Assembly: GCA_963798845.1 (NCBI GenBank) | Contig: CAWCUS010000006.1 | Location: forward strand, 1 to 64,000 | Direction of reading: 5' to 3' | From: an uncultured Gemmatimonadales bacterium | Lineage (GTDB): Bacteria > Gemmatimonadota > Gemmatimonadetes > Longimicrobiales > RSA9 | DNA length: 64,000 bases | In this document: positions 14,074-61,200 of the stretch, piece by piece | Numbering within the stretch: the stretch's first letter is position 1 | Layout: each line of letters starts with the position of its first letter | Translations under genes and position numbers: made by a program | The notes under the pieces: model-generated | Databases searched by the model: none | Seen by the model: only the letters and a program-made list of their open reading frames with translations | Told to the model about the DNA's origin: nothing

Positions 14074-17000
14074 CTAGCGGCCGCTCGCCACCCCCGTCTG
14101 CTCCTCGCCCCACTTCGCCAGCACCCGCTCGAGGCGAGCGAGGTACTCCACCCAGACATCGCGCGCGCCCTGCGTGGGCGCGTTGTCGGCGGAGGTGACC
14201 GCACCGTAGAGGCTGGTGAGCACGCCGGTAATGGCGCGCAGACCTTCGTTGCCGTTGCGCAGGTCGGCGAGGCGTCCGGCGGTATCGCGGTCGAACCGGG
14301 TGGTGTCCTGGAGGGCCGCGCCGATGGCGCGATCGGCGGCCACGGCCTTATGGAGCGCCCCCGCCATGCTGTCGGCGAGCGCGAGCTGTGCGCGGAGGTC
14401 CGCGTCCGGCACGTCCACGCGCGGGTCCATCTTCACCGTCAACGGCTGCGTGTACTCCTTCCCGCCGGCAGACAGCGTGACCGTGTAGTCGCCGGGCAGG
14501 ACGAGGGCGCCCTGCGGGTTGAGCGGCGTGCCCTTCCCCCATACCGCAGCGATCGAGTACTCGTAGCCCAGCGCGTCGGGCCGGTCCTGCCGGAGGTCCC
14601 ACACGAAGCGGTGCATGCCGGGCTCGTCCGACAGCCGCTGGGGCGACCCGACCCACGCTTTCTGGAAGTACCGGAACGCGGGCAGCGAGTCGGGGACGTC
14701 GGTGCTCGAGAAGCGGCGCACCACCTCTCCATCGGAGTCGCGGATCGTGAGCGACACCGGCCCGCCCGACGCCAGCACGTAGTCCAGCACCGCGCCCGTC
14801 GGCGGGTTCTCGCCAAGCGGCGTCTCGGGGGGCCAGGGCGTGTCCCGGTTCTCGTCCGCCCGGAGCCGGATGGCGGTGGCGGGGTGGTACAGGTGGGCCG
14901 GCTCGCCCGCCGCGACGGCGGTCGCCTGCCTCAGCGGCTCGATGTCGTCCATGGTCCAGATCGCGTGCCCGTTGGTGGCCGCGATCAGATCGCCATGATG
15001 GACCATGAGGTCGCGCACCTGCGCGGTGGGCATGTTCTTCCGGATCGAGCGCCAGCTCGCGCCATCGTCGAACGAGACGTAGACGCCACGCTGCGTCCCC
15101 GCGAACAGCAGCCCCGGCTTCACGGGGTCCGCCCGGATCACGAGCGTGTACTCGTCGCCCGGGATTCCGTCCGTGATGCGTGTCCAGCTCTGTCCCGCGT
15201 CCCGCGTCCGGAACAACAGCGGCTCGCGGCGGTCGATCCGGTGAAGGTCCACCGCCACGTAGGCCACACCCGCGTCGTCCGCAGACGCGGATATGGCGTC
15301 AATCCGTCCCCACGCCGGGATCCCGGGCGGCGTCACGTCCTTCCAGTGCGCGCCGCCGTCCGTGGTGAGGCGGACGTAGCCGTCATCGGTCCCGGCCCAG
15401 ATCGTGTTCTCGTCCACCGGCGACGGCTCTATGGCGTAGACCACTCCGAAGCCGCACACCCGCGCGGTCGTCCGGTCCGGATCGTGGCACGTCTCCGCCC
15501 CCGGGTCCTGCCGCGGCCCGGCCCCGGGGGAAGCGCCGCCCATGGCGCCGCTCAGGTCGGGCGAGATCTCCGTCCAGTGGGCGCCGTTGTCGTCTGAGCG
15601 GAAGATCATCTGCGCGCCCAGGAACACCGGGTGCGGCGGGAAGGGCGAGAACACGAGCGGCGTGATCCACGTGTAGCGGTACTTCACGCCCGTCGGCCGC
15701 GCCCCGTACGTGTTCACGGGCCACGGGGAGATCTCCGCGGACTGGCGCGTGACGTCGTCGTAGCGGGAGATGTGACCGCCGAGGCCGCTCCCGAAGACGG
15801 TGTCGGGGACGCCGGGCTTGGGCACCATGTCGTCGCGCTCGTCGCCGCCCACGGGGTGCCAGTCCCGCAGCTCGATGACGCCGTACGGCCCCCGACTCGC
15901 GATCTCCACGGTGCCGTTGTCCTGCTGGCCGCTGTAGATGTGGTACGGAAAGCGATCGTCGGCGCCCAGGTGATAGAACTGTCCGGTTGGCTGGTTGTAC
16001 CAGCTCGACCACGTCCTGCCGCCGTTCACGCTCACCGTGGCGCCCTGGTCCACCCCCGCCACCATCCGCTCCGGCGCCAGCGGGTCGATCCAGAAGTCGT
16101 GCCAGTCGTCGCCGCCCGGCGAGCCGTTCCACGGCTCCCATGTCCGGCCGCCGTCGGTGCTGATGCGGATCGACTGGCCCATCAGGAAGACCGTGTTCGG
16201 GTCGGTCGGCGAGACCGTGAGCCGGCCGAAGTAGTCGCTGGCCAGCTCGGCCCGGTCGCTCACGTGCGTCCAGCTCCCGCCGCCGTCGCCCGACCGCCAG
16301 ATCCCCGCCGCGTCCGTCGTGGCCTCGACCACGGCGTAGACGACGCGCCCGCCGGTCCCCCGGGCCACCCCGACGCCGATGCGCCCCAGGTCTCCGGACG
16401 GGAAGCCGCCGCCCGTCAGCCGCTTCCAGGTCGTGCCGCCGTCGGTGCTCTTCCAGACCCCGGACCCCGGGCCCACGCGTGGCTGGAAGTAGTCGAGCCA
16501 CGGGTGCATGGTCATCTGCCACGTGGCAGCGTAGACGGTTTGCGGTGCGGTGCCGTCCCGGGCCAGGTCGACCGCCCCCGTGCGGTCGTCCACCTTCAGC
16601 GCCTGCTTCCATGTGCCGCCGCCATCCGTGCTCCGGTAAACGCCACGCTCCACGTTCGGCCCGAACACGTGCCCGAGCGCCGCCACCAGCACCACGTCGG
16701 CGTCGTTCGGGTCCACCAGGATCTTTCCGACGTGCCGGCTGTCGCGGAGCCCCACATTCCGCCACGTCTCGCCGCCGTCGTCCGAGCGGTAGACGCCGTC
16801 GCCGGCCATGATGTCGTAGCGTGCAGCAACCTGCCCCGTGCCGGCGTACAGAACCGACGGGTCGGACGGCGCTACGGCGAGCCCGCCGATCGACTGCGAC
16901 GGCGCATCCTGCATCAACCCTCGCCACGTGCGCCCCGCGTCGTCGGTCTTCCACACGCCGCCGCCGGCCGTGCCCACGTAGAACGTCGTGGCCGACCCGG

Positions 17001-17247
17001 GAATCCCGGTGGCCACCGTGGCCCAGCCCGCGCGGAACGGCCCCACCAGCCGCCAGCGCATGTCCCGGTAGCTCGCCTCGGCCACCGGGCCGGCGCCCTC
17101 TCGCACGGCCGCTTCCGTCCGCGTCGCCTGGGCGCGCGCCACCGACGGCGCCGCAGGCACGAGGGCGGCGGCGACCAGGAGGAGGATGGGGACGGCGGCG
17201 GGGGAAACGAGGGCGGCCGAGAAGGGAGGTGTGGAGTGGCGGTGCAT
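14074..17247 (-). CDS. Secreted BNR/Asp-box repeat beta-propeller protein (VPS10/sortilin-like, putative glycosyl hydrolase)
   Basis: Signal peptide, WRLVGPFRAG and many S/TxDGGxTW Asp-box repeats; C-terminal Ig-like and helical region. Confidence 0.88.
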   Translation of the reverse strand: MHRHSTPPFSAALVSPAAVPILLLVAAALVPAAPSVARAQATRTEAAVREGAGPVAEASYRDMRWRLVGPFRAGWATVATGIPGSATTFYVGTAGGGVWKTDDAGRTWRGLMQDAPSQSIGGLAVAPSDPSVLYAGTGQVAARYDIMAGDGVYRSDDGGETWRNVGLRDSRHVGKILVDPNDADVVLVAALGHVFGPNVERGVYRSTDGGGTWKQALKVDDRTGAVDLARDGTAPQTVYAATWQMTMHPWLDYFQPRVGPGSGVWKSTDGGTTWKRLTGGGFPSGDLGRIGVGVARGTGGRVVYAVVEATTDAAGIWRSGDGGGSWTHVSDRAELASDYFGRLTVSPTDPNTVFLMGQSIRISTDGGRTWEPWNGSPGGDDWHDFWIDPLAPERMVAGVDQGATVSVNGGRTWSSWYNQPTGQFYHLGADDRFPYHIYSGQQDNGTVEIASRGPYGVIELRDWHPVGGDERDDMVPKPGVPDTVFGSGLGGHISRYDDVTRQSAEISPWPVNTYGARPTGVKYRYTWITPLVFSPFPPHPVFLGAQMIFRSDDNGAHWTEISPDLSGAMGGASPGAGPRQDPGAETCHDPDRTTARVCGFGVVYAIEPSPVDENTIWAGTDDGYVRLTTDGGAHWKDVTPPGIPAWGRIDAISASADDAGVAYVAVDLHRIDRREPLLFRTRDAGQSWTRITDGIPGDEYTLVIRADPVKPGLLFAGTQRGVYVSFDDGASWRSIRKNMPTAQVRDLMVHHGDLIAATNGHAIWTMDDIEPLRQATAVAAGEPAHLYHPATAIRLRADENRDTPWPPETPLGENPPTGAVLDYVLASGGPVSLTIRDSDGEVVRRFSSTDVPDSLPAFRYFQKAWVGSPQRLSDEPGMHRFVWDLRQDRPDALGYEYSIAAVWGKGTPLNPQGALVLPGDYTVTLSAGGKEYTQPLTVKMDPRVDVPDADLRAQLALADSMAGALHKAVAADRAIGAALQDTTRFDRDTAGRLADLRNGNEGLRAITGVLTSLYGAVTSADNAPTQGARDVWVEYLARLERVLAKWGEEQTGVASGR

Positions 17248-17345
17248 GGCTCAGGTCCTGTGGAACGGCTTCGTTTGCACACGGCGGGCGTCGTCGCGCG
17301 GGAGACCGCATGATACCGTGCCTCCCACCTGCGCGCGAGCGCAAC

Positions 17346-17573
17346 TCGAATCCCCGCGCAGCGGGGGCGAGCCGCGCAAGCGGCGAGCTTCGAATCCCCG
17401 CGCAGCCGGGGGCGAGCCGCGCAAGCGGCGAGCTTCGAATCCCCGCGCAGCGGGGGCGAGCCGCGCAAGCGGCGAGCTTCGAATCCCCGCGCAGCGGGGG
17501 CGAGCCGCGCTCAGCGGCGAGCTTCGAATCCCCGCGCAGCGGGGTCCCCGAGCCGCGCAAGCGGCGACGGGGA
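17346..17573 (+). repeat. Tandem array of five 44-45 bp double-hairpin (REP/BIME-like) units
   Basis: Unit TCGAAT-CCCCGC-GCA-GCGGGG-GCGA-GCCGC-GCAA-GCGGC-GAGCT starts at 17346, 17390, 17435, 17479 and 17524; no unique spacers. Confidence 0.92.
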
Positions 17574-17653
17574 TCGAACCTCGAAGGCCCGACCCCCGCC
17601 AACGCCTTCAACCCCGCAACGACCGGGCGGGCACACCCGCCCGGCCGACGCAC

Positions 17654-20182
17654 CTACGCGTCCGGGTCCAGCACCTTCGCGATCCGATGCTGCACCCCGA
17701 TCAGGTGATACCGCGTAGCCCTGTCCCCGGCTCTCGGGATGGCGCGCTGCACCTGCTGCTGGAGCGTGGTCAGCTCACCCCGCACCTGCGCCTTGGCGGC
17801 CTCGGAGAGCGGCTCCGGCCGGCGGAACCCCGGGAACGGCGACGTCTGGCTCGACTGCTCCGGTGGGTTCAGCTTCTGGTCCAGGATGTCCAGGAGCGTC
17901 ATCTGGAGGCCGCGGCGGTACGGATCGATCCGGATCTCCCGTGCGAGCGACACTTCCGAAAAGATGCCGCCGGTCACGTCGTCGAGGAGGTTCGTGAGGG
18001 TGTAGCTGCCACCCGGCGTCCGGCTCAACGCCTCGGTGTCGAGCAGACGGTTCAGCCGGTCGTCGCTGAAGAGCGTCCGCAGCACGGCCTGCTGTGCCCC
18101 GTTCACGCGCTCGATCATCGCGTCCGCCTCGATACGCCGCGCGATCTCCGGCTGGATCAGGTAGTCCTGCGTCTGGAACACGTTGTGGTTCAGGAACGCG
18201 ACCGCGGCCTGCTGCCGCGCGTGCGGAACCGGCGCGTACACCGCCCCCGGCTGGCTGCCGGACTTGTACTGCACCGTCCCGCCGCCCACCAGCGTGGCCA
18301 CGTGGCTCGCCTCCCTCGCCCACTGCCCCACGGTCCGGTCGTACAGCTCCGCCATCTCGCTGTTGTCCTCGCCCGCGTGCGTGGCGGCGGAGGGGATGTA
18401 GCGCATGACGCGCCGGATGTTGCGGAACCCGAGCTCCGTCGACGCGATCGGGTCCGCATCGCCCACGGCTTCGGACATGGTGCCGAAGCCCCCGAAGTCG
18501 TTGTTCGATGAGAAGCGGTACCACACCACGGTGTCCTGGACCATGGCCCAGCGGTCGAGCGTCGGCACTTCCTCCGCCGCCGAGCGAGCCGAGGGGATCG
18601 GCTTGTAGCCCCACATGATGACGAACTTGTCGTACGGCCCGATCCGCGGGACCAGGTCCGCCACCGCGAGGCTGTCCTCCGGCTGTGCCACGTAGTTGAA
18701 CCGGGAGTAGTCCATGATGCTCGGCGAGTGGCCCATCTTCGCCACCCACGTCGCGCTCCGAACGCTGTCCGCCGGGTACATGGAGCTGCCCAGCTGATCG
18801 TGCTGTAGCCCGATCGTGTGACCGATCTCGTGGGCGACAATGAACTCCAGGATCCGGCCCATGAGGCTGTCCGGCATCGGCAGGCTCCGGGCACGCACGT
18901 CCAGCGGCGACACCTGGGCGAAGTACCAGTCGCGGCCGAGATTGAGCACGTTCTGGAATATCCGCACCGAGCCGTTCAGGATCTCACCCGTGCGGGGATC
19001 GCTCACGTGCGGCCCCTGCGCGTTCTCGACCGTCGACGGCAGCCACCGGATCATCGTGTGCCGGATGTCCTCCGGCGACCAGCTCGGATCGTCGGCCGGC
19101 GCGTCCTTCGCGACAATGCCGCCCTTGAATCCGGCCACCTCGAATGCCGGCTGCCAGTCCTCGATCGCCTTCCGGATCCAGGGCTTCCATACGTCCGGCG
19201 TCGCAGGGTCCACGTAATAGACGATCGGCTTCTTCGGCACGCACATCTCCCCGACCCTCTCGTCGGAGCATTCCAGCCGGTACTTCGTGATGTACCGACG
19301 CTGGGCCGCGCCGTGCTCCTGGCCGAAGTTCACCTGCCGGATGCTGAAAAAGCCCAGCCGCTCGTCGAAGCGTCGCGCCATCATCGGCTCCTCCGGCAGC
19401 CGCACGAGGCTCCAGTGCCCCAGAACGGTCTGCGCCGGCGTGCTGCGCGCTCCCCCGGGCCGCCCGCCCAATGCGCTCCCGCCGCCGTTCCCGGCGGGCG
19501 TACCCGTCTGCGTGGCCTCGATCTCCACGTTGTCCGGGAACGCGCTCACGCGCTCAACGTACGAGCGCTTGTCATCAATGGTGCCCTGGATCGCCTGGAG
19601 CTGAGGCACCGACGTCGTGAACAGCTTCGTCACGTCCACCACCGGCGCGTGCTCGGCACCCCAGCTCTCAACCGGCAGCACGGCCACGATCGGCGGATAG
19701 CTCGAGTTCACCACCGCCCGGTACACCGGCAGCGTCGTGTCGGCCGTTACCGAGAACATCGGCGCCCGCACGATCACGCGCTCTCCCTGCAGGTCGAAGC
19801 GGAGCGTGCTCTCGGCGAACTGGTCCCCACCATACTCCCCGAACCCCGTCCTGCGCGGATCATTCGGGTCGAAAGCCGACGCCCGGGCGTATCGACCCAC
19901 CATCAGCATGTCCTTCCCGAGCTCCGCCAATGGGATCTCGAAATACAGCTTCTCGCCCACCTCGTGGACGATGAACATGCCCCGCTGCGTCTTCGCTTCC
20001 GACGTGATCACGCTCGCGTATGGCTTCGGCGCCGATTCCGCGCCCTGCTGTCGTCGTCCGCCCGGCGCTTCGCCCGCCTGCGGCCGCGCTTCGCCTCGAG
20101 GGGTGGGTGCCGCCGGAGCGGCGTGCGAGCAGCCGGCGCCCAGCAGCGCGGCCGCCAGGACCATGACGGTGGTTCGTTTCAT
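17654..20182 (-). CDS. Zinc-dependent metalloprotease lipoprotein (metzincin; DUF5117/DUF4953-like)
   Basis: Lipobox [15 protein letters not shown] zinc motif; Met-turn [13 protein letters not shown] motif. Confidence 0.9.
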
Positions 20183-20447
20183 CGCTCGTTCGGGGTTCTC
20201 TGGGATGGAGCGTGCGCGCCCATGCGTGGCCGCGGTCGGAGCCGGCCGGGGCCACGCACGGCAGACCCGTGCCCGCCTCTTCGCCACCCGACACGCCGAC
20301 CCGGCCACGATACGGACGGCGGGATCCATTTCATGGACGCGTCGGCCCGCGGGAACGTTGGGCGACGACGCCGACCCCTTCCCTCCGGGCGTCGCCCGAC
20401 TCCGGATCTCCCCCCTTGCGGCGGGAGGGTGGTCGCCCGAGGTTCTG

Positions 20448-20462
20448 TGAGAATGATTCTCA
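20448..20462. promoter_or_regulatory. Fur-type box
   Basis: Perfect 7-1-7 inverted repeat TGAGAAT-G-ATTCTCA, close to the Fur consensus TGATAAT-N-ATTATCA, directly upstream of an iron permease. Confidence 0.8.
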
Positions 20463-20515
20463 AACTCTCACGGGCCAACATGCACCGCGCGACCGGGACG
20501 GGGGACGGAACGGAG

Positions 20516-21670
20516 ATGGGGAACGACGGGGCCACGACGCACCACGCGGCCGGAGGTCGTCGCGACCGGCGGGCTGGACGCGCTCGGAGCCGGTCGGGGA
20601 CTGCGGGAATCGATGCGGGCAACGACGCGCGCTGGAGCGGACGTCGTCTGCTGGTGTGGGCGCTCGTTGGCACGGGCGTGCTGGGGGTGGCGGCGCTGGT
20701 GGCGTGGGCGACGATCTGGCGGGGCGGGAGCCCGGACCCGCTGGCCCCGGGGACGGGCCACCTGGCGGGTGTGGCGGACATCGGAGTGCTCGTCTTCCGG
20801 GAAGGGCTGGAGTGCATCCTGGTTCTGGCGGCGGTCACGGCGACGATGACGGGGCCGCGAGCGTCGCACCGGCAGCCGGTGGCGGTAGGGGCGGGGGTGG
20901 CGTTCGGTGCCACGCTGGCGACGTGGTTCCTGGTGGTGGGTGTCGTGGAGCAGCTGCTGGAGAGCGTGCCCGCGCTGCAGGTGCAGGCGGCGACGGGGCT
21001 GCTGGCGATCGTGGTGCTGCTGGTGGTGATGAACTGGTTCTTCCACAAGGTCTACTGGACCGGCTGGATCCGGATGCACAACGACCGCAAGAAGCGGCTG
21101 ATGGAGGAAGCGGATTCGGGCGGGGCCAGGGGTCACCTGCTGGTGGGGCTCGTGCTGCTGGGCTTCACGTCGCTGTATCGGGAGGGCTTCGAGGTGGTGC
21201 TCTTTCTCCAGAGCTACCGCCTGCGGCTGGGCGGGGTGCCCGTGCTGGAAGGCGTCATACTCGGTCTGGCGGGTGCATCGGTCGTCGCCGTGCTCACGTT
21301 CGTGGCGAACCGGCGGCTGCCGTACCGGAAGATGCTGGTATTTACGGGCGTCATGCTGGGAGGCGTGCTGCTGGTGATGGTGGGCGAGCAGGCGCAGGAG
21401 ATGCAGCTCGCCGGGTGGCTGACGACGACGAAGATCCAGGCGCTGGACGGGATGCCGGCCTGGCTGGGGCTCTGGTTCGCGGTATTCCCGACGGTGGAGA
21501 CGCTGGCGGCGCAGGGGCTGGCGGCGCTCCTGGTGCTCGGTTCGTACTTCCTCTCGCGCTTCCGCACGGTCAGGTCATCGAGGAAGGCGACGACGGGCGC
21601 GGCCAGGGTCACGTCCGCCGCATCCGGCAGCGCACCACGGGGCAGCGCGTCGGCGCTGGCGGACGCGTAG
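20516..21670 (+). CDS. FTR1/EfeU-family iron permease
   Basis: Two RExxE motifs (FREGLE, YREGFE) and about 7 TM helices; start may alternatively be ATG 20480. Confidence 0.9.
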   Translation: MGNDGATTHHAAGGRRDRRAGRARSRSGTAGIDAGNDARWSGRRLLVWALVGTGVLGVAALVAWATIWRGGSPDPLAPGTGHLAGVADIGVLVFREGLECILVLAAVTATMTGPRASHRQPVAVGAGVAFGATLATWFLVVGVVEQLLESVPALQVQAATGLLAIVVLLVVMNWFFHKVYWTGWIRMHNDRKKRLMEEADSGGARGHLLVGLVLLGFTSLYREGFEVVLFLQSYRLRLGGVPVLEGVILGLAGASVVAVLTFVANRRLPYRKMLVFTGVMLGGVLLVMVGEQAQEMQLAGWLTTTKIQALDGMPAWLGLWFAVFPTVETLAAQGLAALLVLGSYFLSRFRTVRSSRKATTGAARVTSAASGSAPRGSASALADA

Positions 21671-21705
21671 CCCGGCCGTGCGCGGACGGTGCTGCGAGCA
21701 GCCGC

Positions 21706-23622
<1,917 letters not shown>

Positions 23623-23771
23623 TGGCAGTAGGGGGCTCGGGACTGCAGCGACAACGATAGCTCCGCCGCTCTCCGCGGACCAGCAGGCCGGGGTACCGTG
23701 TCCCCGGACGTCTGTCCCTCGGGCCGTGGTGCGCTTGACACAGTGCCGCACCCGGACCCACCATCAGCATC

Positions 23772-24158
23772 ATGAAGGCCATTTTCCAGCGTGCGGCCGA
23801 TCGGCAGCGGCACCACGCGCATCACTTCTGGCTCTCGCGCGGCGGCGGCTTCTACGGCTTCGTCGCCGCGCTCACGTTCGTCTATCTCGAGGCCGTGGAC
23901 CTGGTAGGGGACATCGCGGGCCTCGCCGGCGTCCGAATCAATGTCGGCTACCTGGTCTCCTGGCTCGTTTCCAACGCCGTGGCCGCGCTGCTGAACGTGC
24001 TGCGGGCCACCCTGTGGCCGATCGCGTGGATGGGACATTTCGGGCTGGGCATTCGCTCCGGGCTCTTCCTCCTGGGCGCCTACCTCCTGTATCTCACCAT
24101 CCGCCCTCTCGCTCTACGCCTCCTCGGGGAGAAGCCCGGGATTCGGCACGTGGCGTAG
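23772..24158 (+). CDS. Hypothetical small membrane protein
   Basis: 128-aa ORF with 3 hydrophobic segments filling the intergenic space. Confidence 0.7.
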   Translation: MKAIFQRAADRQRHHAHHFWLSRGGGFYGFVAALTFVYLEAVDLVGDIAGLAGVRINVGYLVSWLVSNAVAALLNVLRATLWPIAWMGHFGLGIRSGLFLLGAYLLYLTIRPLALRLLGEKPGIRHVA

Positions 24159-24273
24159 CCCCGCCCCCGCCACGCTGCCTCGCCCCCGACATCGGTCAAG
24201 CGACGCACCCACACCATGACCTCGGCGGGCGAGCGCACCTCGATGGTCGCTCAGGCCGCCACGAGCTCCCCGG

Positions 24274-25830
24274 TCACGCGGGCTGGAGGGCGCTGGGGCG
24301 CAGCGCGGCGTCCAACTCCCGGCCCAGCCGGACGACGATCCCCGGGAGGGCGTCCACGTCGGCCTCGGTCGTGTTGAAGTTCACGATGCACGGCCGGAGC
24401 AGGTACCGGCCGTCGACCACGGCATTGGAAACGAAGGCTTCGCCGGAGCCTTGTATGCGCTCCAGAAGCGCTTCGTTCAGCGCGTTCAGGTACGAGCCCG
24501 CGGGCCCGCCTTCGTTGGACCCATCGAGGTCCGGCGGCACGTAACGGAAAGTGCAGATGCTGAGGGACTGGGTGAACGCCTGGAGCCCCGGGGTACGTCG
24601 GACGCGCTCGTGGAGCCGCTCGCTGAGCCGGATGTCATCGCTGATCATCTGCGCGTAGCCGCTTCGCCCCGCGTGCCGCAGCGCGAGCCACACCTTGAGC
24701 GCCCGGAATCCACGCGAGTTCTGTGGCCCGAAGTCCAGGTAGTTCACCGCTTCCTGGCCGAAATGGTAGTACGGCGGGTGGTACGAGAACGCGCGGCGGA
24801 GGGTGGCGGGGTCGCGCACCAGCGTGCAGCCGGCCTCCAGCGGCGCGTAGAGCCACTTGTGCGGGTCCACCGCCACCGAGTCGGCCAGCCCGAGCGCGCG
24901 CAGGTCGTCCGGCGTTCCCGGCACGGCGGCGGCGAAGGCGCCGTAAGCCCCGTCCACGTGCAGCCACACTCCGGCTTCCCGGCAGATTCCGGCGACCTCC
25001 CGAATCGGGTCCACGGCGCCGGTGCTCACGGACCCGGCCGTGGCCACGACCATCATCGGTTGCGCTCCGGCAGACTGGTCCCGCTCCATGGCTTTGCGGA
25101 GCGCGTTCGTATCCATCCGCTGGTCGGCTCCCGCCGGTATCCAGCGGATCGCATCGGTGCCGATCCCGGCCAGATCGGCCCCCTTTTGCAGCCACGTATG
25201 GGTCTCGACGGAAGCGTACACGCGCAGTGGCCGCGACCCGGCCCCGGCAACGCCGCCGGCACGGACGTCCCAGTCCGCGACGGCGGCTCGCGCGGCGAGG
25301 AGACCCACGATATTCGCCATGTTCCCGCCGCTCACGAGCAGGCCGCCGCATTCGGTCGAATAGCCCACGAGCTCGGCCATCCAGCGCACGGCCTGCGCTT
25401 CGATCTCGCTGGCCACGGGCGACAGCCGCCACGCCCCGCTGTTCGCGTTCACGGCCGCGGCCAGGAAGTCCGCGAGCATGCCGATGGGCGCAGGGGAGGA
25501 CGTGACGTAGCCGAAGAACCGAGGGTGGCCGTTGAAAAGCGAGTGCTCGAACAGAAGCTCCGCCGTCGTCCGCAGCAGCGCTTCCGCATCCTCTCCCTGC
25601 TCGGGCAGCCCGCGCTCCGCGCCGATCAGCGCCCGCACTGCCTCGGGCGATTCCGAAGGCGTGACCGGCCGTTCGGCGAGCCCGGCGAGGAAGTCGACCA
25701 CCGCGTCCACCAGGCCGTGGGCGACCCGGCGCATCTCCTCCGGCGCCATCCGAAGCGGCACGTCGCGCGTCGAGCGCGCTTCTGTGGGGGCTGGATGCCG
25801 GACATGCGCCTGCTCGTGGGGTGTTCCCAT
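24274..25830 (-). CDS. Group II PLP-dependent decarboxylase (aromatic amino acid decarboxylase-like)
   Basis: Motifs HPRFFGY, SGGNMAN, TAGSVSTGAVDP, WLHVDGAYG, PLP-lysine DPHKW and SRGFRALKVW. Confidence 0.92.
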   Translation of the reverse strand: MGTPHEQAHVRHPAPTEARSTRDVPLRMAPEEMRRVAHGLVDAVVDFLAGLAERPVTPSESPEAVRALIGAERGLPEQGEDAEALLRTTAELLFEHSLFNGHPRFFGYVTSSPAPIGMLADFLAAAVNANSGAWRLSPVASEIEAQAVRWMAELVGYSTECGGLLVSGGNMANIVGLLAARAAVADWDVRAGGVAGAGSRPLRVYASVETHTWLQKGADLAGIGTDAIRWIPAGADQRMDTNALRKAMERDQSAGAQPMMVVATAGSVSTGAVDPIREVAGICREAGVWLHVDGAYGAFAAAVPGTPDDLRALGLADSVAVDPHKWLYAPLEAGCTLVRDPATLRRAFSYHPPYYHFGQEAVNYLDFGPQNSRGFRALKVWLALRHAGRSGYAQMISDDIRLSERLHERVRRTPGLQAFTQSLSICTFRYVPPDLDGSNEGGPAGSYLNALNEALLERIQGSGEAFVSNAVVDGRYLLRPCIVNFNTTEADVDALPGIVVRLGRELDAALRPSALQPA

Positions 25831-26009
25831 GACCATCTCCGGGTTCGGGGGACCGTCGTGGAAAGGAACCCGGCGACGGCGCCGGCGTCCTGCCCGCATT
25901 CGTGCGGGTTCCTGCTATGGCAAGGGGCGAGCATGCCGCCCCGTCATCCCGGTGGGAAGCCGACAACGGGAGCCGATGATACGGCACCCACCCCCAGAAG
26001 TCCACGCCT

Positions 26010-26191
26010 TCGATCCCCGCGCCAGCGGGGCCGAGCGGCGAAGCCGCGAGCCTCGAATCCCCGCGCCAGCGGGGCCGAGCGGCGAAGCCGCGAGCCTCGA
26101 ATCCCCGCGCCAGCGGGGCCGAGCGGCGAAGCCGCGAGCTTCGAATCCCCGCGCCAGCGGGGTGGCCGAGCCGCGCCAGCGGCGACGGCCA
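26010..26191 (+). repeat. Second tandem array (four units) of the ~44-bp double-hairpin repeat
   Basis: Unit TCGAAT-CCCCGC-GCCA-GCGGGG-CCGA-GCGGC-GAA-GCCGC-GAGCY starts at 26010, 26053, 26097 and 26141; related to the 17346 array. Confidence 0.92.
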
Positions 26192-26286
26192 ACGCCCCTC
26201 GCCCTCCCGACCCCGATGCCCGTGCATTACGTTCAGTCCCCTGCAGCACCATACGAACGTGCACCACCCAACAGGCGAGGCGAGAG

Positions 26287-28668
26287 ATGGCGCGCGAAGG
26301 GGGAGCAGATACGGGCGGAGGCGGGCGGGCGCTCGAGCCGCGTGACTTCATCCGGGCCATTGTCGTGGAGGACCTGGCCACCGGGAAGCACGGCGGGCGA
26401 GTAGTGACGCGCTTCCCCCCGGAGCCCAACGGCTTTCTCCACATCGGTCACGCCAAGTCCATCTGTCTCAATTTCGGTCTGGCGCGGGAGGTCCCGGGCG
26501 CGCGCTGCCACCTCCGCTTCGATGACACCAATCCCGAGACGGAGGACATGGCCTACGTGGAGTCCATCAAGCGGGACGTCGCGTGGCTCGGCTTCGACTG
26601 GGAGGAGCACCTGTACTTCGCATCGGATTACTTCCCCGAGATGTACGCCTTCGCCGAGCACCTGATCCGCGAGGGCAATGCGTACGTGGACAGCCTGAGC
26701 GAGGAGGAGATCCGGGAAGGGCGGGGAACGGTGACGGAGCCCGGGAAGCCCAGCCCGTACCGCGACCGGTCACCCGAGGAGAGCCTCGACCTGTTCCACC
26801 GCATGCGCGACGGCGAGTTCCCGAACGGCGCCCAGGTGCTGCGCGGGAAGATCGACATGGCGTCGCCCAACATGCTGCTGCGCGACCCCGTGCTGTACCG
26901 GATCCGCCACGCGAGCCACTACCGCACCGGCGACGAATGGTGCGTCTATCCATTGTATGACTACGCGCACCCGATCGAGGACGCGCTCGAGGACATCACG
27001 CACTCCCTGTGCACGCTCGAGTTCGAGATCAACCGTCCGCTGTACGACTGGGTAGTGGAGAACATCCCGCTGGAGACGCGGCCCCGGCAGTACGAGTTCG
27101 CCCGCGGCAACCTCGATTTCACGGTCATGAGCAAGCGCAAGCTGCTCACCCTGGTCAGGGAGGGGCACGTCTCCGGCTGGGACGACCCGCGCATGCCCAC
27201 GATCGCCGGGCTGCGCCGCCGCGGCGTGACTCCCGAGTCCATCCGCGCGTTCTGGGACATGCTCGGTATCGCCAAGACGCAGAGCCGCGTTGACATGGGC
27301 AAGCTCGAGTTCGCCATGCGCGACGACCTGAACGCCCGCGCGCCCCGCGTCCTGTGCGTGCTCCGCCCGCTCCGCGTCGTCATCACCAACTACCCGCACG
27401 GCGGCTCCGAGGTCATCGAGGCCAGCTCCTGGCCCCACGACGTGGCGCGCGAAGGCTCACGCTCGCTCCCCTTCTCGGGCGAGCTCTTCATCGACGACGA
27501 CGACTTCCGCGAGGACCCGCCCGCCGACTGGAAGCGGCTCGCCCCCGGCCGGGCGGTCCGCCTCCGCCACGGCTACGTCATCCGTTGCGACGAGGTCGTC
27601 CGCGACGACGCCGGCGCCATCCGCGAGCTCCACTGCCGCTACGCGCCCGGGAGCCTCGACGGCGATCCTCCCGCCGAGTGGGAAGTGGGCGGCGCCATCC
27701 ACTGGGTGGACGCGGAGCGCTCCCGCTCGTGCGAAGTCCGCCTCTACGACCGGCTCTTCATGGTGCCGGATCCGGATGCGGAGGCCGCCGAGACCGGCCG
27801 CGACTTCACCGCCTTCCTCAACCCCGACTCGCTGGTCGTAGTGGAGAACGCCCGCATCGAGCCCTCGGTCCAGGCCGACCCGCCCGGCTCCCGCTACCAG
27901 TTCGAGCGGGTCGGGTACTTCATGAGCGATCCCGAGGACTCCTCGCCCGAGCGGCTGGTCTTCAATCGGACGGTCACGCTCCGCGACACGTGGACGCGCC
28001 GCACGGCCGGTGGCGTCGAAGCGACCGTGGTCTCGAGCGTCACCGCGAGCGGGACTGCCGGCGCGCCCGAGCTGAGCTCCGAGGAGCACCGGCGTCTGCG
28101 GCGGGCGGCGGCGCCGGACCGGTCGGCGGACCTGGAGGCGCGGCGTCGCCGGTACGAGGAGGAGCTGGGTGTCGGCGACGAGGACGCGGAGCTCCTCACG
28201 CGCGAGACGGCCCTGGCCGACTTTTTCGAGGCGGCGGTGGCCGCAGGTGGGTCGGCGCAGCGCGTCGCCAACTGGCTGATCAACGAGCTCCCGCGGGAGA
28301 TCGGGGACCGCACGCTGGAGAACCTGCCGTTCGGCGGCCGCGAGGTAGGGCGGCTGGTGGCGCTGCTCGAGGACGGCACCCTGTCCGGAAGCACGGCCAG
28401 GGACGTCCTCGCCGAGCTGGTGGCGTCGGGTGGGGAGCCGGACGCCATCGTGGACAGCAAGGGGCTGCGCCAGATCAGGGACGAGGCCTACCTCGCCCCC
28501 GTCGTCGCCCGCATCGTGGGCGCCAATCCGGGAAAGGCCGCCGACTACCGCGCCGGCCGCGCCGCCCTCATCGGCTTCTTCATGGGGCAGGTGATGAAGG
28601 AGACGGGCGGAAAAGCCGATCCGGAGCTGGCGAGAAGGCTGCTCGGGGAGCGGCTCGGGGAGGTCTGA
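26287..28668 (+). CDS. glnS: Glutamine--tRNA ligase with a C-terminal GatB/YqeY domain
   Basis: TRFPPEPNG.LHIGH, RFDDTNP, MSKRK, GWDDPRMPTI and QFER.GYF...FNRTV.L motifs; C-terminal ANWLINEL...GFFMGQVMKETGGKADP. Confidence 0.96.
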   Translation: MAREGGADTGGGGRALEPRDFIRAIVVEDLATGKHGGRVVTRFPPEPNGFLHIGHAKSICLNFGLAREVPGARCHLRFDDTNPETEDMAYVESIKRDVAWLGFDWEEHLYFASDYFPEMYAFAEHLIREGNAYVDSLSEEEIREGRGTVTEPGKPSPYRDRSPEESLDLFHRMRDGEFPNGAQVLRGKIDMASPNMLLRDPVLYRIRHASHYRTGDEWCVYPLYDYAHPIEDALEDITHSLCTLEFEINRPLYDWVVENIPLETRPRQYEFARGNLDFTVMSKRKLLTLVREGHVSGWDDPRMPTIAGLRRRGVTPESIRAFWDMLGIAKTQSRVDMGKLEFAMRDDLNARAPRVLCVLRPLRVVITNYPHGGSEVIEASSWPHDVAREGSRSLPFSGELFIDDDDFREDPPADWKRLAPGRAVRLRHGYVIRCDEVVRDDAGAIRELHCRYAPGSLDGDPPAEWEVGGAIHWVDAERSRSCEVRLYDRLFMVPDPDAEAAETGRDFTAFLNPDSLVVVENARIEPSVQADPPGSRYQFERVGYFMSDPEDSSPERLVFNRTVTLRDTWTRRTAGGVEATVVSSVTASGTAGAPELSSEEHRRLRRAAAPDRSADLEARRRRYEEELGVGDEDAELLTRETALADFFEAAVAAGGSAQRVANWLINELPREIGDRTLENLPFGGREVGRLVALLEDGTLSGSTARDVLAELVASGGEPDAIVDSKGLRQIRDEAYLAPVVARIVGANPGKAADYRAGRAALIGFFMGQVMKETGGKADPELARRLLGERLGEV

Positions 28669-58263: not shown

Positions 58264-61200
58264 GCGACCACGTACGTCCCCTCGCCGGGCGCCGAACGCA
58301 CCTCGAGGTCGCCGCCGCGGAGCCGGAGACGCTCCCGCGCGCTGAACAGGCCCAGGCTGCCCCTGCGCCGATGGCCGTCCAGCGACGCCGGGTCGAACCC
58401 CAGGCCGTGGTCCCTCACCGTCACCTGTACCCGGTCGTCCCCGCGGGTCACCTCCACCACTGCGTGGCCGGTTCCCGCGTGCTTGGCCACGTTGAAGAGC
58501 AGCTCCCGCGTGACCTGGAAGAGGAGGATCCGGAGGTCGGCCGGTGGAATCACCACCTCCTCGTCGGCCTGGATCTCCACCTCGAGGCCGTGCATGTCGC
58601 GCATCTGGGTCCGCAGCCACTCGATGGCGCCGACCAATCCCTCGCCCTCCAGGATCGGAGGGTTCAGGTCGACCGTGAGCTGCCGCGTGCGGGTGATCGC
58701 CTGCCCGAGCAGGTCGAGGCTCTGCCGCGCCTGCTCGGCGGCGCCGGCGAGCTCTTCCCGCCGCGCCTGCTCCAGCGCCAGGCTGACCTTCATCTGGATG
58801 CCATAAAGCAGCTGCTGGAGGTCGTCGTGGAGCAGGTGCGACAGGCGTTGCCGCTCCTCCTGCTCGGCCACGGACAGCATCTCGGCAAGCCCCCGCACTT
58901 CCTCGGTGCGTTCCTGGACACGACGCTCGAGCTCCTCCTCCTCGTGCTTGCGATCGGTGATGTCGCGGATCCCCAGCAGGATGCGCTGGACCTTGTCGAG
59001 GCGGCGGGCGTTCAGCAGCATCACTCGCTCTCCGAGATCCTCGAACGCGTGGCGGACCTCGTAGTCGTTGAAGACTTCGTTGTCCGGCAACACGTCCTCG
59101 AGGAGCATGCGCAGCTCGGGGATGTCCCACTCGCCGCTGCCCAGGTCGTAGATACGGTGTCCGACGGTCTGTCGCTCCCGGACCAGGAAGTGGTCGTAGA
59201 AGGCCTGGTTGACCCGCTGCACCCGCAGTTCCGGATCCAGGACGAGCAGCGGCTCGTGCAGCGTCTCGAAGATGCTCTCGGCGTAGTCCCGGGCCTCCCG
59301 CAGCTCCTCTTCCGCCCGCTTCCGCTCGGTGATGTCCACGAACGTGGCCACCACGCCCTCGATCCGGTCGTCGTGGCTGCGGTAGGGAAGCACGCGTGTC
59401 AGGTACCACCGGCCGCCCTCATCGGACACCTCCCGCTCGACGGGGATCAGCCGCTCCAGAACCCGGCGCGCGTCCTCCTGAAGCTCGGCGTAGCGAAGCC
59501 GGTGCGTCAGGTCCCCGACGGGTCGTCCCCGATCCGCCGCTCGCACGTTGAACAGCTCGGCGACACGCGGGGTGTAGCGCATGATGCGAAGCTCCCGGTC
59601 CAGGAACAGCGTGGCGATGTCGCTCGCGGCCAGGAGGTTCTGGAGATCCCCGCTCAGCTGCGAAAGCTCCTCCACTCTGTGGCGGTTCTCCTGGTTCACC
59701 GTGTGGAGCTCCTCGTTCATGCTCTGGAGCTCCTCCTTGCTCGTCTCCAGCTCCTCCAGGGTGGAGCGGAGCTCCTCGTTCGACGACTGCAGCTCCTCGT
59801 TCGACGCACGCAGCTCCTCCTGGCCCGCCTCGTACTCCTCGATGATGCCCTGGAGCTGCTCCCGCGTCTGCCGCAGCTCCGCCTCCAGGCCGGCCACCCG
59901 CTCCGCGTCCGACCACGAGGCGACCGCCGCTCCGGGCGATCCTGCCGCACTCTCACCGTCACCGCCGATCTCCTGCCCGGCGCGTCCGGCCGCGGCGGTG
60001 TCCCGCCGCTCCGCTGCTGGCCGCTCTGTGAAAAGCACGAGAGCGAACCCCTCCTGACCCGGCTCGCCGGCAGGGCGAACGTCCATGGTCACTTCGGCGA
60101 ACTCGCCGTCGAAGCGCACCGCCTGCGGCCGCGTCCGCACGGACGCCTCCCGCTTCCTCGCCTCGTGCAGCGCCGATCGCAGCTCGATCCGGAGCTCCTC
60201 CCGGAGCAGCCTGTAGACACTGGACGTCAGCTCACCGCCCGGATGGACCAGGTACCGGCCAGCGTGCTCGGAGAGGTGGACCACGCGGTCGTCGGGGCTC
60301 ACCAGGAGGCCCGGCGGGCCGTACCGCTCGACAATGCGCTGGTGCATCTCCCCGTACGCAAGCGGTTCCGCGTCCGCCCGCCGGCGCTCCCCGGCTGCGT
60401 CCCGGCGGGGGTGCGTGACCGGGAAGACGGGGAGGCGCGGCTCCGGAGCCGAGACGTTGCGTCGTCGGTAGATGGACCTCTTTTCGTCGGCGACGCTGAA
60501 CAGATCCTGGGTTTCGACAGTTTCGGAGGTGCCCAGGACCAGGAAGCCGGCGGGACGAAGGGCGTAGTGGAAGATGTCGACCACGTCGCGCTGTACGCCG
60601 CGGCCCAGGTAGATGAGGACGTTGCGGCAGGAGATCAGGTCGATGCGTGAGAACGGCGGATCGGCGAGCAGGTTGTGGGGCGAGAACACCACCATCTCCC
60701 GCACCTGCGGACGGATCCGGTACCCGCCGTCCTCCTCGATGAAAAAGCGGCGCAGCCGCTCCAGGCTGACGTCCGTGGCGATGTCGCCCGGATAGAACCC
60801 TTCGCGCGCCTTCTCCAGAGACCCGTCGTGCAGGTCGCTCGCGAAGATCTGGATCCCGGGCGGCGCATTGCGCCGGGCGGCTTCCTCCACGAGCAGCATG
60901 GCGAGAGAGTACGCCTCCTCGCCCGTCGCGCACCCCACGCTCCAGACCCGGATCGTGTCGTCGGGGCCACGGCCCTCGAACAGGGCCGGGACCACCTCCT
61001 CCCCCAGCGCCTGCCAGACCTCCGGGTCCCGGAAAAAGCTGGTCACCGTGATCAGCAGGTCGGCTGCCAGCTCCCGCACCTCTTCGCCGTGCTCGCGCAG
61101 CAGCGTGACATACGCCTCCAGCTCCTCCACCCGGCGAATCCGCATCCTGCGCCCGATGCGCCGAAGGATCGTGCTCCGCTTGTAGTCGGTGAAATCATGC

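What the first reader, a model, noticed from the sequence alone, without database searches (positions are those of the whole stretch)
26010..26191. Structured repeat array 2: compensatory stem changes relative to array 1 point to selection on structure
Seen: same orientation, 44-bp period, linker and hairpin A stem as array 1. Hairpin B is GCGGC-GAA-GCCGC instead of GCCGC-GCAA-GCGGC, so pairing is retained. Loop lengths are swapped (4+3 versus 3+4) and the period is unchanged. The terminal cap is TGGCCG-A-GCCGC-GCCA-GCGGC-GA-CGGCCA versus TCCCCG-A-GCCGC-GCAA-GCGGC-GA-CGGGGA, with two compensatory pairs and identical A/GA bulges. Units are homogeneous within arrays but differ between them. It lies in the divergent region upstream of glnS. 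Inference: a functional element with fixed architecture (n units plus a cap) amplified locally. The 44-bp period is about four helical turns, consistent with phased protein binding. This is the strongest non-coding signal in the window.
Basis: partly seen in the sequence, partly recalled or inferred. Interest (0 to 1): 0.75.

Follow-up and report, generated by a model that had tools for sequence, protein, structure and literature searches.

The report
Hairpin repeat array upstream of glnS
The 44-base repeat array before the glutaminyl-tRNA synthetase gene is real and its hairpins do covary, but it is one copy of a lineage-restricted family of small self-amplifying hairpin repeats that also sits between other genes and even in frame inside enzymes, a new variant of a known kind of bacterial repeat.

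Summary
Window 26010-26191 has three 43-44-nt units plus a 51-nt cap. Hairpin B is swapped, the two loop lengths are exchanged, and the cap has two compensatory pairs relative to array 1 (17346-17573).

It is not a private regulator of glnS. It belongs to a family of about 26 loci in this Gemmatimonadota genome. There are 66 covariance-model matches, and 67 distinct units were collected.

Each unit has three parts:
- a TCGAAT tag;
- hairpin A, with a GNA or GNNA loop;
- hairpin B: outer stem, tandem G.A, inner stem, then a GNA or GNNA loop.

In a model-guided alignment of 51 distinct units, 98% of cells pair and 13 of 17 pairs change on both sides. Unit length ranges from 30 to 58 nt, so the reading of phased protein binding every four helical turns fails.

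Evidence on how the family behaves:
- It lies in frame inside metH (two arrays) and queG.
- A congener has fewer units at the same sites, or only the cap.
- A second species has 66 matches, and 17 other genera of the family have none.
- All 10 homogeneous arrays have the stable-hairpin strand on the lagging-strand sequence.

Best reading: a REP/BIME/BOX/RPE-like selfish structured repeat that expands locally by slippage. It lacks the GTAG and CGTC tags and has no flanking RAYT gene. This scan reported the same kind of repeat, but not this family, in other genomes.

The parts
26010..26052 (+). Array 2, unit 1 (43 nt). The tag is degenerate (TCGATC). Hairpin A is CCCGC-GCCA-GCGGG(G) and hairpin B is GCGGC-GAA-GCCGC.
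   Evidence: The covariance model R1 gives only 14.2 bits.
26053..26140 (+). Array 2, units 2 and 3 (44 nt each): TCGAAT, then hairpin A CCCCGC-GCCA-GCGGGG, CCGA, hairpin B GCGGC-GAA-GCCGC, and GAGC.
   Evidence: R2 scores each unit at 43.1 bits.
26141..26191 (+). Array 2 cap unit (51 nt): TCGAAT, hairpin A, then the long hairpin B, T-GGCC-GA-GCCGC-GCCA-GCGGC-GAC-GGCC-A.
   Evidence: R2 61.9 bits, E 2.7e-9. Folds at -23.6 kcal/mol. The orthologous cap in congener G152 has the outer stem TGCCC/GGGCA.
17346..17583 (+). Array 1: four 44-45-nt units, a 50-nt cap unit (17524-17573), and the terminal motif TCGAACCTCG.
   Evidence: R2 gives 65.7 bits for the cap. In congener G152 this site holds only a solitary cap hairpin.
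25976..26004 (-). Sigma-70-like promoter match, TGGACT-17-TATCAT, facing the decarboxylase gene. Its -35 hexamer lies 6 nt from the 5' edge of the array. A similar TATCAT motif lies beside array 1.
   Evidence: 1 site found against a mean of 0.0 in 50 shuffles. The shared flank motif was read. This is a consensus match only.
26224..26243 (+). GCATTACGTTCAGTCCCCTG, a stretch between the cap and the glnS start. It is conserved in congener G152 and partly conserved in G151, which has no array. It is probably glnS promoter or leader and not part of the repeat.
   Evidence: by reading the three upstream regions.
26287..28668 (+). glnS (glutaminyl-tRNA synthetase with a C-terminal GatB/YqeY domain). 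It starts 95 nt downstream of the cap.
   Evidence: Pfam tRNA-synt_1c at 1.6e-100 and GatB_Yqey at 4.3e-40. The ATG was read.
24274..25899 (-). PLP-dependent decarboxylase gene, divergent from glnS. It is absent from this position in congener G152, where synteny breaks at the 5' edge of the array.
   Evidence: Pfam Pyridoxal_deC at 1.5e-59. Synteny.
14074..17247 (-). BNR/sortilin-repeat protein gene. Its start is 99 nt from array 1.
17654..20011 (-). Met-zincin (DUF4953) gene. Its stop is about 70 nt from the end of array 1.

Best explanation
Array 2 is one locus of a lineage-restricted family of small structured DNA repeats that behaves as selfish or near-neutral DNA. It works like REP/BIME clusters, pneumococcal BOX elements and Rickettsia palindromic elements.

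**The unit (shown).** A single-stranded TCGAAT tag is followed by hairpin A (5-6 bp, with a G-N-A or G-N-N-A loop). Hairpin B follows, built of an outer stem, a tandem G.A internal loop, an inner stem and a G-N-A or G-N-N-A loop.

**How a locus grows (inferred).**
1. A locus begins as a single cap unit with a long hairpin B.
2. Further units are added head to tail on its 5' side. This happens by replication slippage or unequal exchange between the tags.
3. Growth is easier when the strand with the more stable hairpins is the nascent lagging strand. This makes units alike within an array and different between arrays.

**Why pairing is kept (inferred).** Either only units that still fold are amplified, or the two arms are corrected against each other. 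Both routes give compensatory changes without any benefit to the host.

**Tolerance and spread.** The host tolerates the elements in spacers next to promoters and terminators, and in disordered protein loops where they are read in frame. How the element reaches new sites is open. The RAYT-like HUH/Y1 proteins of the genome are candidates without direct support. Any effect of array 2 on glnS or on the divergent promoter would be incidental.
For: **Family.** The own genome has 66 matches to model R2 at E<=1e-3, among 150 candidates scored. They fall in about 26 loci, none of them tied to one gene class.

**Structure.** In 51 distinct units:
- 98.0% of 740 cells pair, against 80.7% in shuffles (0 of 500 shuffles reach the observed value);
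- partners slid by 1-3 columns pair in only 43-58% of cells;
- 13 of 17 pairs change on both sides, in 93 cells.

**Strand asymmetry.**
- Hairpin A loops are GNA in 39 of 67 distinct units and TNC in 6.
- Hairpin B loops are GNA in 26 and GNNA in 16, with TCC in 1.
- G.T pairs number 9 cells against 3 A.C cells.
- The top strand folds more stably as DNA in 46 of 67 units.

**Not gene-specific.**
- In the Gemmatimonadaceae MAG G151, metH is one open frame with both arrays in phase.
- Against Thermus MetH (8g3h), query 1-429, 516-866 and 953-1077 align to chain 260-689, 693-1020 and 1041-1177. The two 86-residue unaligned stretches face 3 and 20 chain residues.
- Pfam Met_synt_B12 is split at profile positions 113/118 in the own genome.
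- queG carries one unit in frame after its CPWN motif.
- Genic units are 45, 48 or 51 nt long, apart from two that break the frame at G6 and G7 runs.

**Turnover at orthologous sites.**
- Congener G152 has about two different units plus the cap before glnS, and only a solitary cap at the array 1 site.
- G152 has a degenerate single unit or a remnant in metH.
- G151 has no array before glnS.

**Patchy spread.**
- G151 has 66 matches, G152 has 2, and 17 other genera of the family have 0.
- 1 weak match was found in 150 sampled genomes of the phylum.

**Orientation.**
- The top strand lies on the strand with negative GC skew at 19 of 26 loci (p 0.029).
- All 10 arrays with adjacent units at least 94% alike are in that orientation, against 9 of the other 16 loci (Fisher p 0.023).
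Against: **No insertion event was caught.** There is no filled site paired with an empty site and a target duplication. Mobility is inferred only from the patchy distribution.

**Long persistence with pairing intact.**
- Arrays sit at the same two metH loops in G000 and G151, although the closer relative G152 has only remnants there.
- The glnS cap differs between G000 and G152 by a compensatory change in the outer stem.
- Both points fit long-term purifying selection on pairing, which a host function would also explain.

**No link to the RAYT-like genes.**
- The three RAYT-like genes have no family unit within 1.5 kb. The best score is 11.3 bits at E 0.27.
- Their homologues occur in 5 of the 17 family genomes that have no repeats.

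**Weaknesses in the statistics.**
- Orientation relative to replication is confounded with orientation relative to genes.
- The loci are not independent: five are head-to-head pairs.
- The covariation alignment was fitted to the model.

**Missing data.** No expression data could be obtained.
Confidence: 0.6

Rival explanations
1. The arrays are functional RNA or transcription elements. When transcribed, the GC-rich hairpin stacks would act as terminators, insulators between neighbouring transcription units, or 3'-end protectors of mRNA, as proposed for many REPs. Selection on that role would keep the pairing.
For: - Several arrays fill the whole spacer between convergent genes. At C2:220225-220429 the gaps are 6 and 24 nt. 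At C6:490665-490906 the gaps are 5 and 15 nt.
- Array 1 follows the stop of the Met-zincin gene.
- Array 2 abuts a promoter-like site.
Against: - There is no orientation preference relative to genes: 12 antisense against 8 sense in tandem or genic contexts, p 0.50.
- The loop and G.A asymmetry favours one strand, yet that strand is often not the transcribed one.
- Arrays inside metH and queG cannot be terminators.
- G151 has no array before glnS, and G152 has only a cap at the array 1 site.
- Rfam gave no match, at gathering thresholds or at E<=1.
- With RNA energy parameters the top strand is not clearly more stable: 38 units against 28, p 0.22.
Confidence: 0.15
2. The units are REP-type targets of the RAYT-like HUH/Y1 proteins of the genome. 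These proteins would recognise the hairpins and the TCGAAT tag on single-stranded DNA at the replication fork, then cut and rejoin them. That would both disperse single units and build arrays. This overlaps with the best explanation and differs only in the engine.
For: - Three paralogues of 321-375 aa carry an HUH motif. They match NF047646 (REP-associated tyrosine transposase) over nearly the whole profile, at 50-73 bits.
- The element shows a strand asymmetry and a bias relative to replication, as expected for single-strand transposition.
- Homologues are present in both other carriers, G151 and G152.
Against: - All three scores are below the curated cut-off of 80 bits.
- No unit flanks these genes.
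- There is no conserved GTAG or CGTC tag.
- Homologues occur in 15 of 40 other genomes of the family. These include 5 of the 17 with no repeats, while G152 has two copies but only 2 units.
- The stable-hairpin strand lies on the leading-strand template. From memory, IS608-type elements use the lagging-strand template.
Confidence: 0.2
3. The array is a double-stranded DNA platform on which a protein binds in phase every 44 bp (four helical turns) to regulate the divergent glnS region.
For: - Arrays 1 and 2 share the 44-bp period.
- TTCGAA in the linker is a palindrome, as dimer binding sites often are.
- Array 2 lies directly upstream of a promoter-like site.
Against: - Complete units range from 30 to 58 nt. 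The lengths 45, 46, 48 and 51 are each as common as or commoner than 44.
- The variable parts covary as hairpins, which points to single-strand pairing and not to a duplex recognition site.
- The element occurs inside coding regions and in every spacer type.
- Copy number differs between congeners, and the array is absent before glnS in G151.
Confidence: 0.04

Closest known systems
REP elements and their BIME clusters, including GTAG- and CGTC-tagged REPs and intragenic REPs (Di Nocera et al. 2013, PMC3733652, abstract and passages read). REPIN/RAYT papers PMC3116915 and PMC3337134 were seen only as search listings and abstract starts.
   Same: - Short GC-rich stem-loops in high copy, mostly between genes.
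- They form clusters, with a constant tag beside a variable stem.
- Abundance is patchy between related genomes.
- Some copies lie inside genes.
- The genome holds HUH/Y1 transposase-like genes.
   Different: - The tag is TCGAAT or TCGACT (59 of 67 units), not GTAG or CGTC.
- A unit holds two different hairpins, the second with a tandem G.A internal loop.
- Units stand head to tail and end in a cap, and do not form inverted doublets.
[quoted passage not shown]
BOX elements of Streptococcus pneumoniae (boxA, boxB repeated n times, boxC). Croucher et al. 2011, PMC3049150, was seen as a search listing and abstract start. The module order is recalled.
   Same: A modular build with a variable number of one internal module and a distinct terminal module. 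The DNA is strongly folding, lies in intergenic positions, and varies in copy number.
   Different: There is no sequence relation and the host phylum is different. Here no separate 5' module was recognised. Units are half hairpin A and half hairpin B, and the cap is an extended form of hairpin B.
Rickettsia palindromic elements (RPE), as described in the MITE review PMC10969869 (passage read).
   Same: Palindromic repeats that are also found in frame inside unrelated housekeeping genes, where they add a peptide without breaking the gene. Here the genes are metH (two sites) and queG.
   Different: RPEs are about 150 bp and occur as single elements. Here the inserts are tandem arrays of 45-51-nt units. 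In G151's MetH each array leaves an 86-residue stretch that does not align to the Thermus enzyme. Only 3 of about 26 loci lie inside a gene; a fourth only overlaps the 3' end of a gene.
Structure-prone tandem repeats whose expansion depends on orientation to the replication fork (triplet-repeat work in E. coli and yeast; recalled, no paper read here).
   Same: All recently amplified arrays carry the more stable hairpin strand on the lagging-strand sequence. In those systems this is the orientation that favours expansion.
   Different: That behaviour was shown by experiment for 3-nt units. Here it is only a genomic correlation for 40-52-nt units.

Membership tests
REP (repetitive extragenic palindromes; GTAG/CGTC super-families) | Short GC-rich stem-loop units in many copies, mostly extragenic | tested here: met
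   66 model matches in the own genome. About 26 loci, of which 22 lie between genes, 3 lie inside genes and 1 overlaps the 3' end of a gene. Folds.
REP (repetitive extragenic palindromes; GTAG/CGTC super-families) | Conserved GTAG or CGTC tetranucleotide at one end of the stem-loop (PMC3733652) | tested here: not met
   GTAG occurs in 5 of 67 distinct units and CGTC in 8 of 67, at scattered positions. The constant tag is TCGAAT (50 of 67) or TCGACT (9 of 67).
REP/RAYT system (REPtron) | A RAYT gene flanked by the REPs that it is thought to mobilise | tested here: not met
   Three RAYT-like genes score 50-73 bits on NF047646, below the cut-off of 80. No unit lies within 1.5 kb on either side of them; the best score is 11.3 bits at E 0.27 with filters off.
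REPIN | Two REPs in inverted orientation forming one larger hairpin as the mobile unit | tested here: not met
   Units stand head to tail. Five loci hold two arrays head to head, but 60-110 nt of unrelated sequence separates them.
BOX-like modular repeat | A variable number of one internal module closed by a distinct terminal module | tested here: met
   18 arrays or single units end in the long-stem cap. 15 of those are followed directly by TCGA. This is a likeness in build only, and sequence relation to BOX was not tested.
RPE-like intragenic palindromic element | The repeat lies in frame inside conserved protein genes, in a loop, with the flanking domains intact | tested here: met
   - G151's metH is one open frame of 1078 aa. 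Its two 86-residue unaligned stretches face 3 and 20 residues of Thermus MetH.
- The own queG ORF is continuous through the unit.
- In the own genome's metH the frame breaks at two homopolymer runs. Whether that is sequencing error or real is not known.
Rfam RNA families | A match to a curated covariance model | tested here: not met
   0 matches at gathering scores over the whole window. 0 matches at E<=1 on 25950-26300.
tRNA-derived element (the TTCGAAT linker resembles a T loop) | A T stem around the loop, or a tRNA-like fold | tested here: not met
   ARAGORN finds no gene in 17000-26600. The bases on either side of TTCGAAT do not pair in arrays 1 and 2.
VNTR/MIRU-type intergenic tandem repeat | Copy number differs between close relatives at the same locus | tested here: met
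   - Before glnS: 3 units plus cap in G000, about 2 units plus cap in G152, and none in G151.
- At the array 1 site: 4 units plus cap in G000, and the cap only in G152.

The most novel reading that the evidence does not exclude
The family is a new class of self-expanding two-hairpin DNA module with three properties.
- A solitary cap hairpin seeds a locus.
- Units are then added only when the G-N-A/G.A-stabilised strand is the nascent lagging strand. Array growth would then directly record hairpin formation on Okazaki fragments in vivo.
- The same module is translated as inserts that add some 65-85 residues inside MetH, and as a shorter insert inside QueG.

A bolder form holds that the TCGAAT tag plus hairpin is the substrate of the RAYT-like proteins that carry a C-terminal helix-turn-helix. 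That would define a third REP tag class beside GTAG and CGTC.
Probability: 0.2. Interest if true: 0.65.

Novelty: new variant of a known kind. Interest (0 to 1): 0.5.

Why it matters
For annotation, these arrays should be masked as repeats. They should not be called regulatory RNAs or glnS operators. Genes such as metH that appear split or frameshifted around them should be checked before they are called pseudogenes.

For biology, the family offers three things:
- a compact natural case in which hairpin covariation arises in what looks like selfish DNA, a warning for covariation-based RNA discovery;
- a set of loci in three related genomes (cap only, few units, many units) that shows how such arrays grow;
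- a testable link between hairpin strand, replication direction and repeat expansion in a GC-rich bacterium.

It also adds Gemmatimonadota to the phyla in which palindromic repeats are read in frame inside housekeeping enzymes.

Tried and rejected
- **Rfam.** No match at gathering scores on the window or at E<=1 on the array.
- **tRNA-like origin of TTCGAAT.** ARAGORN found nothing.
- **Alignment method.** The plain MAFFT alignment of 24 units (A1) put hairpin B out of register and was not used. I built a two-seed model. Its model-guided alignment A4 was used for the pair counts and for model R2.
- **Gene caller.** My first version ran glnS through the array. A log-odds version replaced it. 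Both are home-made, and gene starts are approximate.
- **Sequencing runs.** None was listed for 25500-26800, so expression and the metH homopolymer frameshifts could not be checked.
- **Pattern scan of genome contigs.** 4 loci were found. Two are true arrays in one Gemmatimonadaceae MAG. The Patescibacteria and Planctomycetota hits are single sites without arrays.
- **Pattern scan of metagenome contigs.** 11 single sites were found, at 31.4 bits or less with R2, and no arrays. The pattern only sees the CCCCGC/GCGGGG form of hairpin A.
- **Common flank motif.** None was found across arrays. The motif shared by arrays 1 and 2 reads as a -10-like TATCAT of the leftward genes.
- **RAYT-like genes against repeat presence.** No clear link.
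- **Phased binding at 44 bp.** Rejected because unit length varies.
- **Limit on the phylum-wide search.** The searches scored only 39 candidates per genome, and 150. Weak or divergent copies may therefore have been missed.
Full report
**1. The observation**

Tandem Repeats Finder reports two arrays of period 44 on the + strand:
- array 2 at 26013-26162, with 3.4 copies and 99% matches;
- array 1 at 17346-17567, with 4.9 copies and 94% matches.

- The linker TCGAAT and hairpin A stem CCCCGC/GCGGGG are shared.
- Hairpin B is GCGGC-GAA-GCCGC in array 2 and GCCGC-GCAA-GCGGC in array 1.
- The loops are 4+3 nt in array 2 and 3+4 nt in array 1.
- The caps are TGGCCG-A-GCCGC-GCCA-GCGGC-GA-CGGCCA and TCCCCG-A-GCCGC-GCAA-GCGGC-GA-CGGGGA.

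As single DNA strands the units fold into exactly these two hairpins, at -14 to -15.5 kcal/mol. The cap units fold at about -23.6 kcal/mol.

This is more than chance. Across the genome, TCGAAT is followed by a perfect hairpin at 67 of 778 sites (8.6%). The other TCGANN hexamers give 1.0-2.8%.

The array lies between a PLP-dependent decarboxylase gene (-) and glnS (+, ATG at 26287).

**2. It is a family, not a pair**

The window is contig C6:1-64000 of a 4.26-Mb, 70% GC genome in six contigs. The only outside carriers I found by pattern are labelled Gemmatimonadaceae.

How the family was collected:
- TRF on the whole genome, and a scan for the linker followed by a hairpin, turned up many more arrays of the same build.
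- I built a covariance model from two caps of identical geometry.
- I used it to align the units and rebuilt the model from that alignment (R2).
- R2 finds 66 matches at E<=1e-3 in the own genome, among 150 candidates scored.
- The matches fall in about 26 loci.
- Within the window, only arrays 1 and 2 match well.

The common plan is TCGAAT (50 of 67 distinct units) or TCGACT (9 of 67), then two hairpins:
- Hairpin A has 5-6 bp and many different stems: CCCCGC, CGCCGC, CCGCGC, CCTCGC, CCGGC, CCCCC and GCCCGC.
- Hairpin B has an outer stem of 0-7 bp, GA on the 5' side facing GA or GAN on the 3' side, an inner stem of 2-7 bp, and a loop of 3-4 nt.

Arrays end in a unit whose hairpin B has a long outer stem, the cap. 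18 terminal units have it, and 15 of those are followed directly by TCGA, often as TCGAACCTCG. Some arrays are homogeneous and others are mixtures of quite different units.

**3. Covariation**

On the model-guided alignment of 56 matches (51 distinct rows), one search gives:
- 98.0% of 740 cells form standard pairs, against 80.7% in column shuffles (0 of 500 shuffles reach it);
- 43-58% of cells pair when partners are slid by 1-3 columns;
- 13 of 17 pairs show changes on both sides, in 93 cells.

Two cautions apply. The alignment was fitted to the model, and units within an array are copies. The effect is nevertheless plain by eye between loci.

The other test is failed. Complete units are 30-58 nt long, with 44, 45, 46, 48 and 51 all common. 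A 44-bp helical phase is therefore not a property of the element.

**4. One strand is special**

On the TCGAAT strand the loops are mostly G-N-A or G-N-N-A:
- Hairpin A has GNA loops in 39 of 67 units, and the complementary TNC type in 6.
- Hairpin B has GNA in 26 and GNNA in 16, against 1 TCC.

The internal loop is a tandem G.A on that strand, which would be pyrimidine mismatches on the other strand. G.T pairs outnumber A.C pairs by 9 cells to 3.

With DNA energy parameters the top strand is more stable in 46 of 67 units, less stable in 18 and equal in 3. The mean difference is 0.33 kcal/mol. With RNA parameters the difference is not clear, at 38 units against 28.

From memory, C-GNA-G triloops and sheared tandem G.A pairs are classic stabilisers of DNA mini-hairpins. 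No paper was read on this point.

**5. Where the elements sit**

Most loci lie between genes, in all arrangements: tandem, convergent (sometimes filling the whole spacer) and divergent. Three lie inside genes.

*metH.*
- In the own genome, two arrays interrupt metH.
- One lies in the cap of the B12 domain.
- The other lies in the activation domain, where Pfam Met_synt_B12 is split at profile positions 113/118.
- The reading frame changes from 2 to 0 and back to 2.
- The changes fall exactly at a 58-nt unit with a G6 run and a 47-nt unit with a G7 run. All other genic units are 45, 48 or 51 nt.

*metH in G151.*
- In the Gemmatimonadaceae MAG G151, both arrays lie at the same two places and the whole gene is one open frame.
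- Against Thermus MetH (8g3h), residues 1-429, 516-866 and 953-1077 align with chain residues 260-689, 693-1020 and 1041-1177.
- The two 86-residue stretches in between face 3 and 20 chain residues.

*queG.*
- The own queG carries a single unit in frame after its second iron-sulfur motif.
- Conserved sequence lies on both sides.

All three genic insertions are antisense to the gene and are read in the same phase of the unit. A fourth locus supplies the last residues and the stop of a glycoside hydrolase-like ORF.

**6. Comparison with relatives**

| Genomes searched with R2 | Matches | Call |
|---|---|---|
| Own genome (G000) | 66 | 56 |
| G151 (Gemmatimonadaceae MAG) | 66 | 55 |
| G152 (the only other genome of the genus held) | 2 | 56 |
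| 17 other genera of the family | 0 | 56 |
| 12 further genomes of the same order | 0 | 56 |
| 150 sampled genomes of the phylum | 1 weak | 34 (only 39 candidates scored per genome) |

One of the 17 family genomes, G168, is flagged unpublished.

Exact-pattern scans added little:
- The scan of 185,579 species genomes found only G151's two metH arrays and two isolated sites.
- The scan of the metagenome collection found 11 isolated weak sites and no arrays.

At orthologous sites the picture is one of turnover:
- Before glnS, G152 has about two units of different sequence and the same cap. Its outer stem is TGCCC/GGGCA where the own genome has TGGCC/GGCCA, a compensatory change.
- Synteny with the own genome breaks at the 5' edge of the array.
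- G151 has no array before glnS.
- At the array 1 site, G152 has only a solitary cap hairpin followed by a TCGAACCTCG-like motif.
- In metH, G152 has one degenerate unit at the second site and a remnant at the first.
- G027 and G156 have unrelated short linkers at those metH sites.

The cap thus looks like the old, stable part, and the units like later, lineage-specific additions on its 5' side. This is an inference.

**7. Orientation**

dnaA lies at C6:473.5 kb. It sits on the plateau of the cumulative GC-skew minimum, and the maximum is near 1,280 kb.

Relative to replication:
- The TCGAAT strand lies on the strand with negative 200-kb skew at 19 of 26 loci (two-sided binomial p 0.029), and at 11 of 12 loci on contig C6.
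- All 10 arrays that hold adjacent units at least 94% alike are in this orientation.
- The 7 loci in the other orientation are small, mixed arrays with adjacent identity of 0.66-0.87 (Fisher p 0.023).

Relative to transcription there is no clear bias: 12 antisense against 8 sense.

Two cautions apply. The loci are not independent, since five are head-to-head pairs. Gene direction also correlates with replication direction. As far as I recall, a structure-prone strand on the nascent lagging strand is the orientation that favours expansion of triplet repeats.

**8. What drives spread**

The genome has three RAYT-like genes with an HUH motif and a C-terminal helix-turn-helix. They score 50-73 bits on NF047646, below the cut-off of 80.
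- No family unit lies within 1.5 kb of them.
- Homologues occur in G151 and G152.
- Homologues also occur in 15 of 40 other genomes of the family. These include 5 of the 17 that have no repeats.

The link is open. The GTAG and CGTC tags that define the two REP super-families (PMC3733652, passages read) are absent.

**9. Verdict**

Its compensatory changes do reflect a constraint on pairing. But the element is a dispersed, structured, locally amplifying repeat of the REP/BIME, BOX and RPE kind.
- It is not a device of the glnS region.
- Its period is not fixed.
- It is a new variant of that kind, distinguished by four features:
  - the two-hairpin unit;
  - the TCGAAT tag;
  - the G.A internal loop;
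  - the cap, with growth that depends on orientation.
- I found nothing about it in print. A search for Gemmatimonas with 'palindromic' and 'repeat' gave 7 papers, none on this as judged by title and abstract start. The REP survey PMC3733652 does not mention the phylum in its main text.
- Earlier reports of this scan describe the same kind of thing in other genomes, but not this family.

Any effect on the adjacent promoter-like site at 25976-26004 remains untested.

Noticed in passing
G000:C6:1183000-1186600 (locus L015), outside the window: metH is interrupted by two arrays. A third and a fourth array, in inverted orientation to each other, bracket a four-helix-bundle gene (23S rRNA intervening-sequence protein family, PF05635 / TIGR02436). 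That gene lies between metH and a homocysteine S-methyltransferase-domain gene. In the own genome the metH frame breaks at G6 and G7 runs inside the arrays. This may be sequencing error, a pseudogene, or slippage.
   Followed up: partly
Whole genome, e.g. C1:6440-6680, C2:28544-28756, C4:95053-95319, C6:243729-244010, C6:1003838-1004126: A second, unrelated family of tandem arrays with units of about 25 nt. Each unit has two small hairpins, of the CCTC-GCA-GAGG type and the GGCC-loop-GGCC type. There are at least a dozen arrays.
   Followed up: no
window 17248-17345 and 25940-26009: Arrays 1 and 2 share a flank motif on their 5' side, GGGAG..CCG.ATGATAC.G..CC.CCCACC. On the minus strand it reads as a TATCAT -10-like box for the leftward genes. 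The scan calls a promoter-like site only at array 2.
   Followed up: partly
window about 20000-26000 compared with G152:C6:217499-221590: In the congener, the Met-zincin gene and glnS are only about 0.7 kb apart. The four genes that lie between them in this genome (about 20654-25899) are missing there. The breakpoint on the glnS side coincides with the 5' edge of array 2.
   Followed up: partly
G000:C1:549763-550686, C5:284192-285106, C5:398621-399583, C2:166604-167350: Three full paralogues and one partial paralogue of a RAYT-like HUH/Y1 protein with a C-terminal helix-turn-helix. Homologues are present in 15 of 40 other genomes of the family. Their own flanking repeats, if any, were not examined.
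   Followed up: partly
window 59707-59862: A 42-nt (2 x 21) tandem repeat with 62% matches. It is probably coding and was not examined.
   Followed up: no
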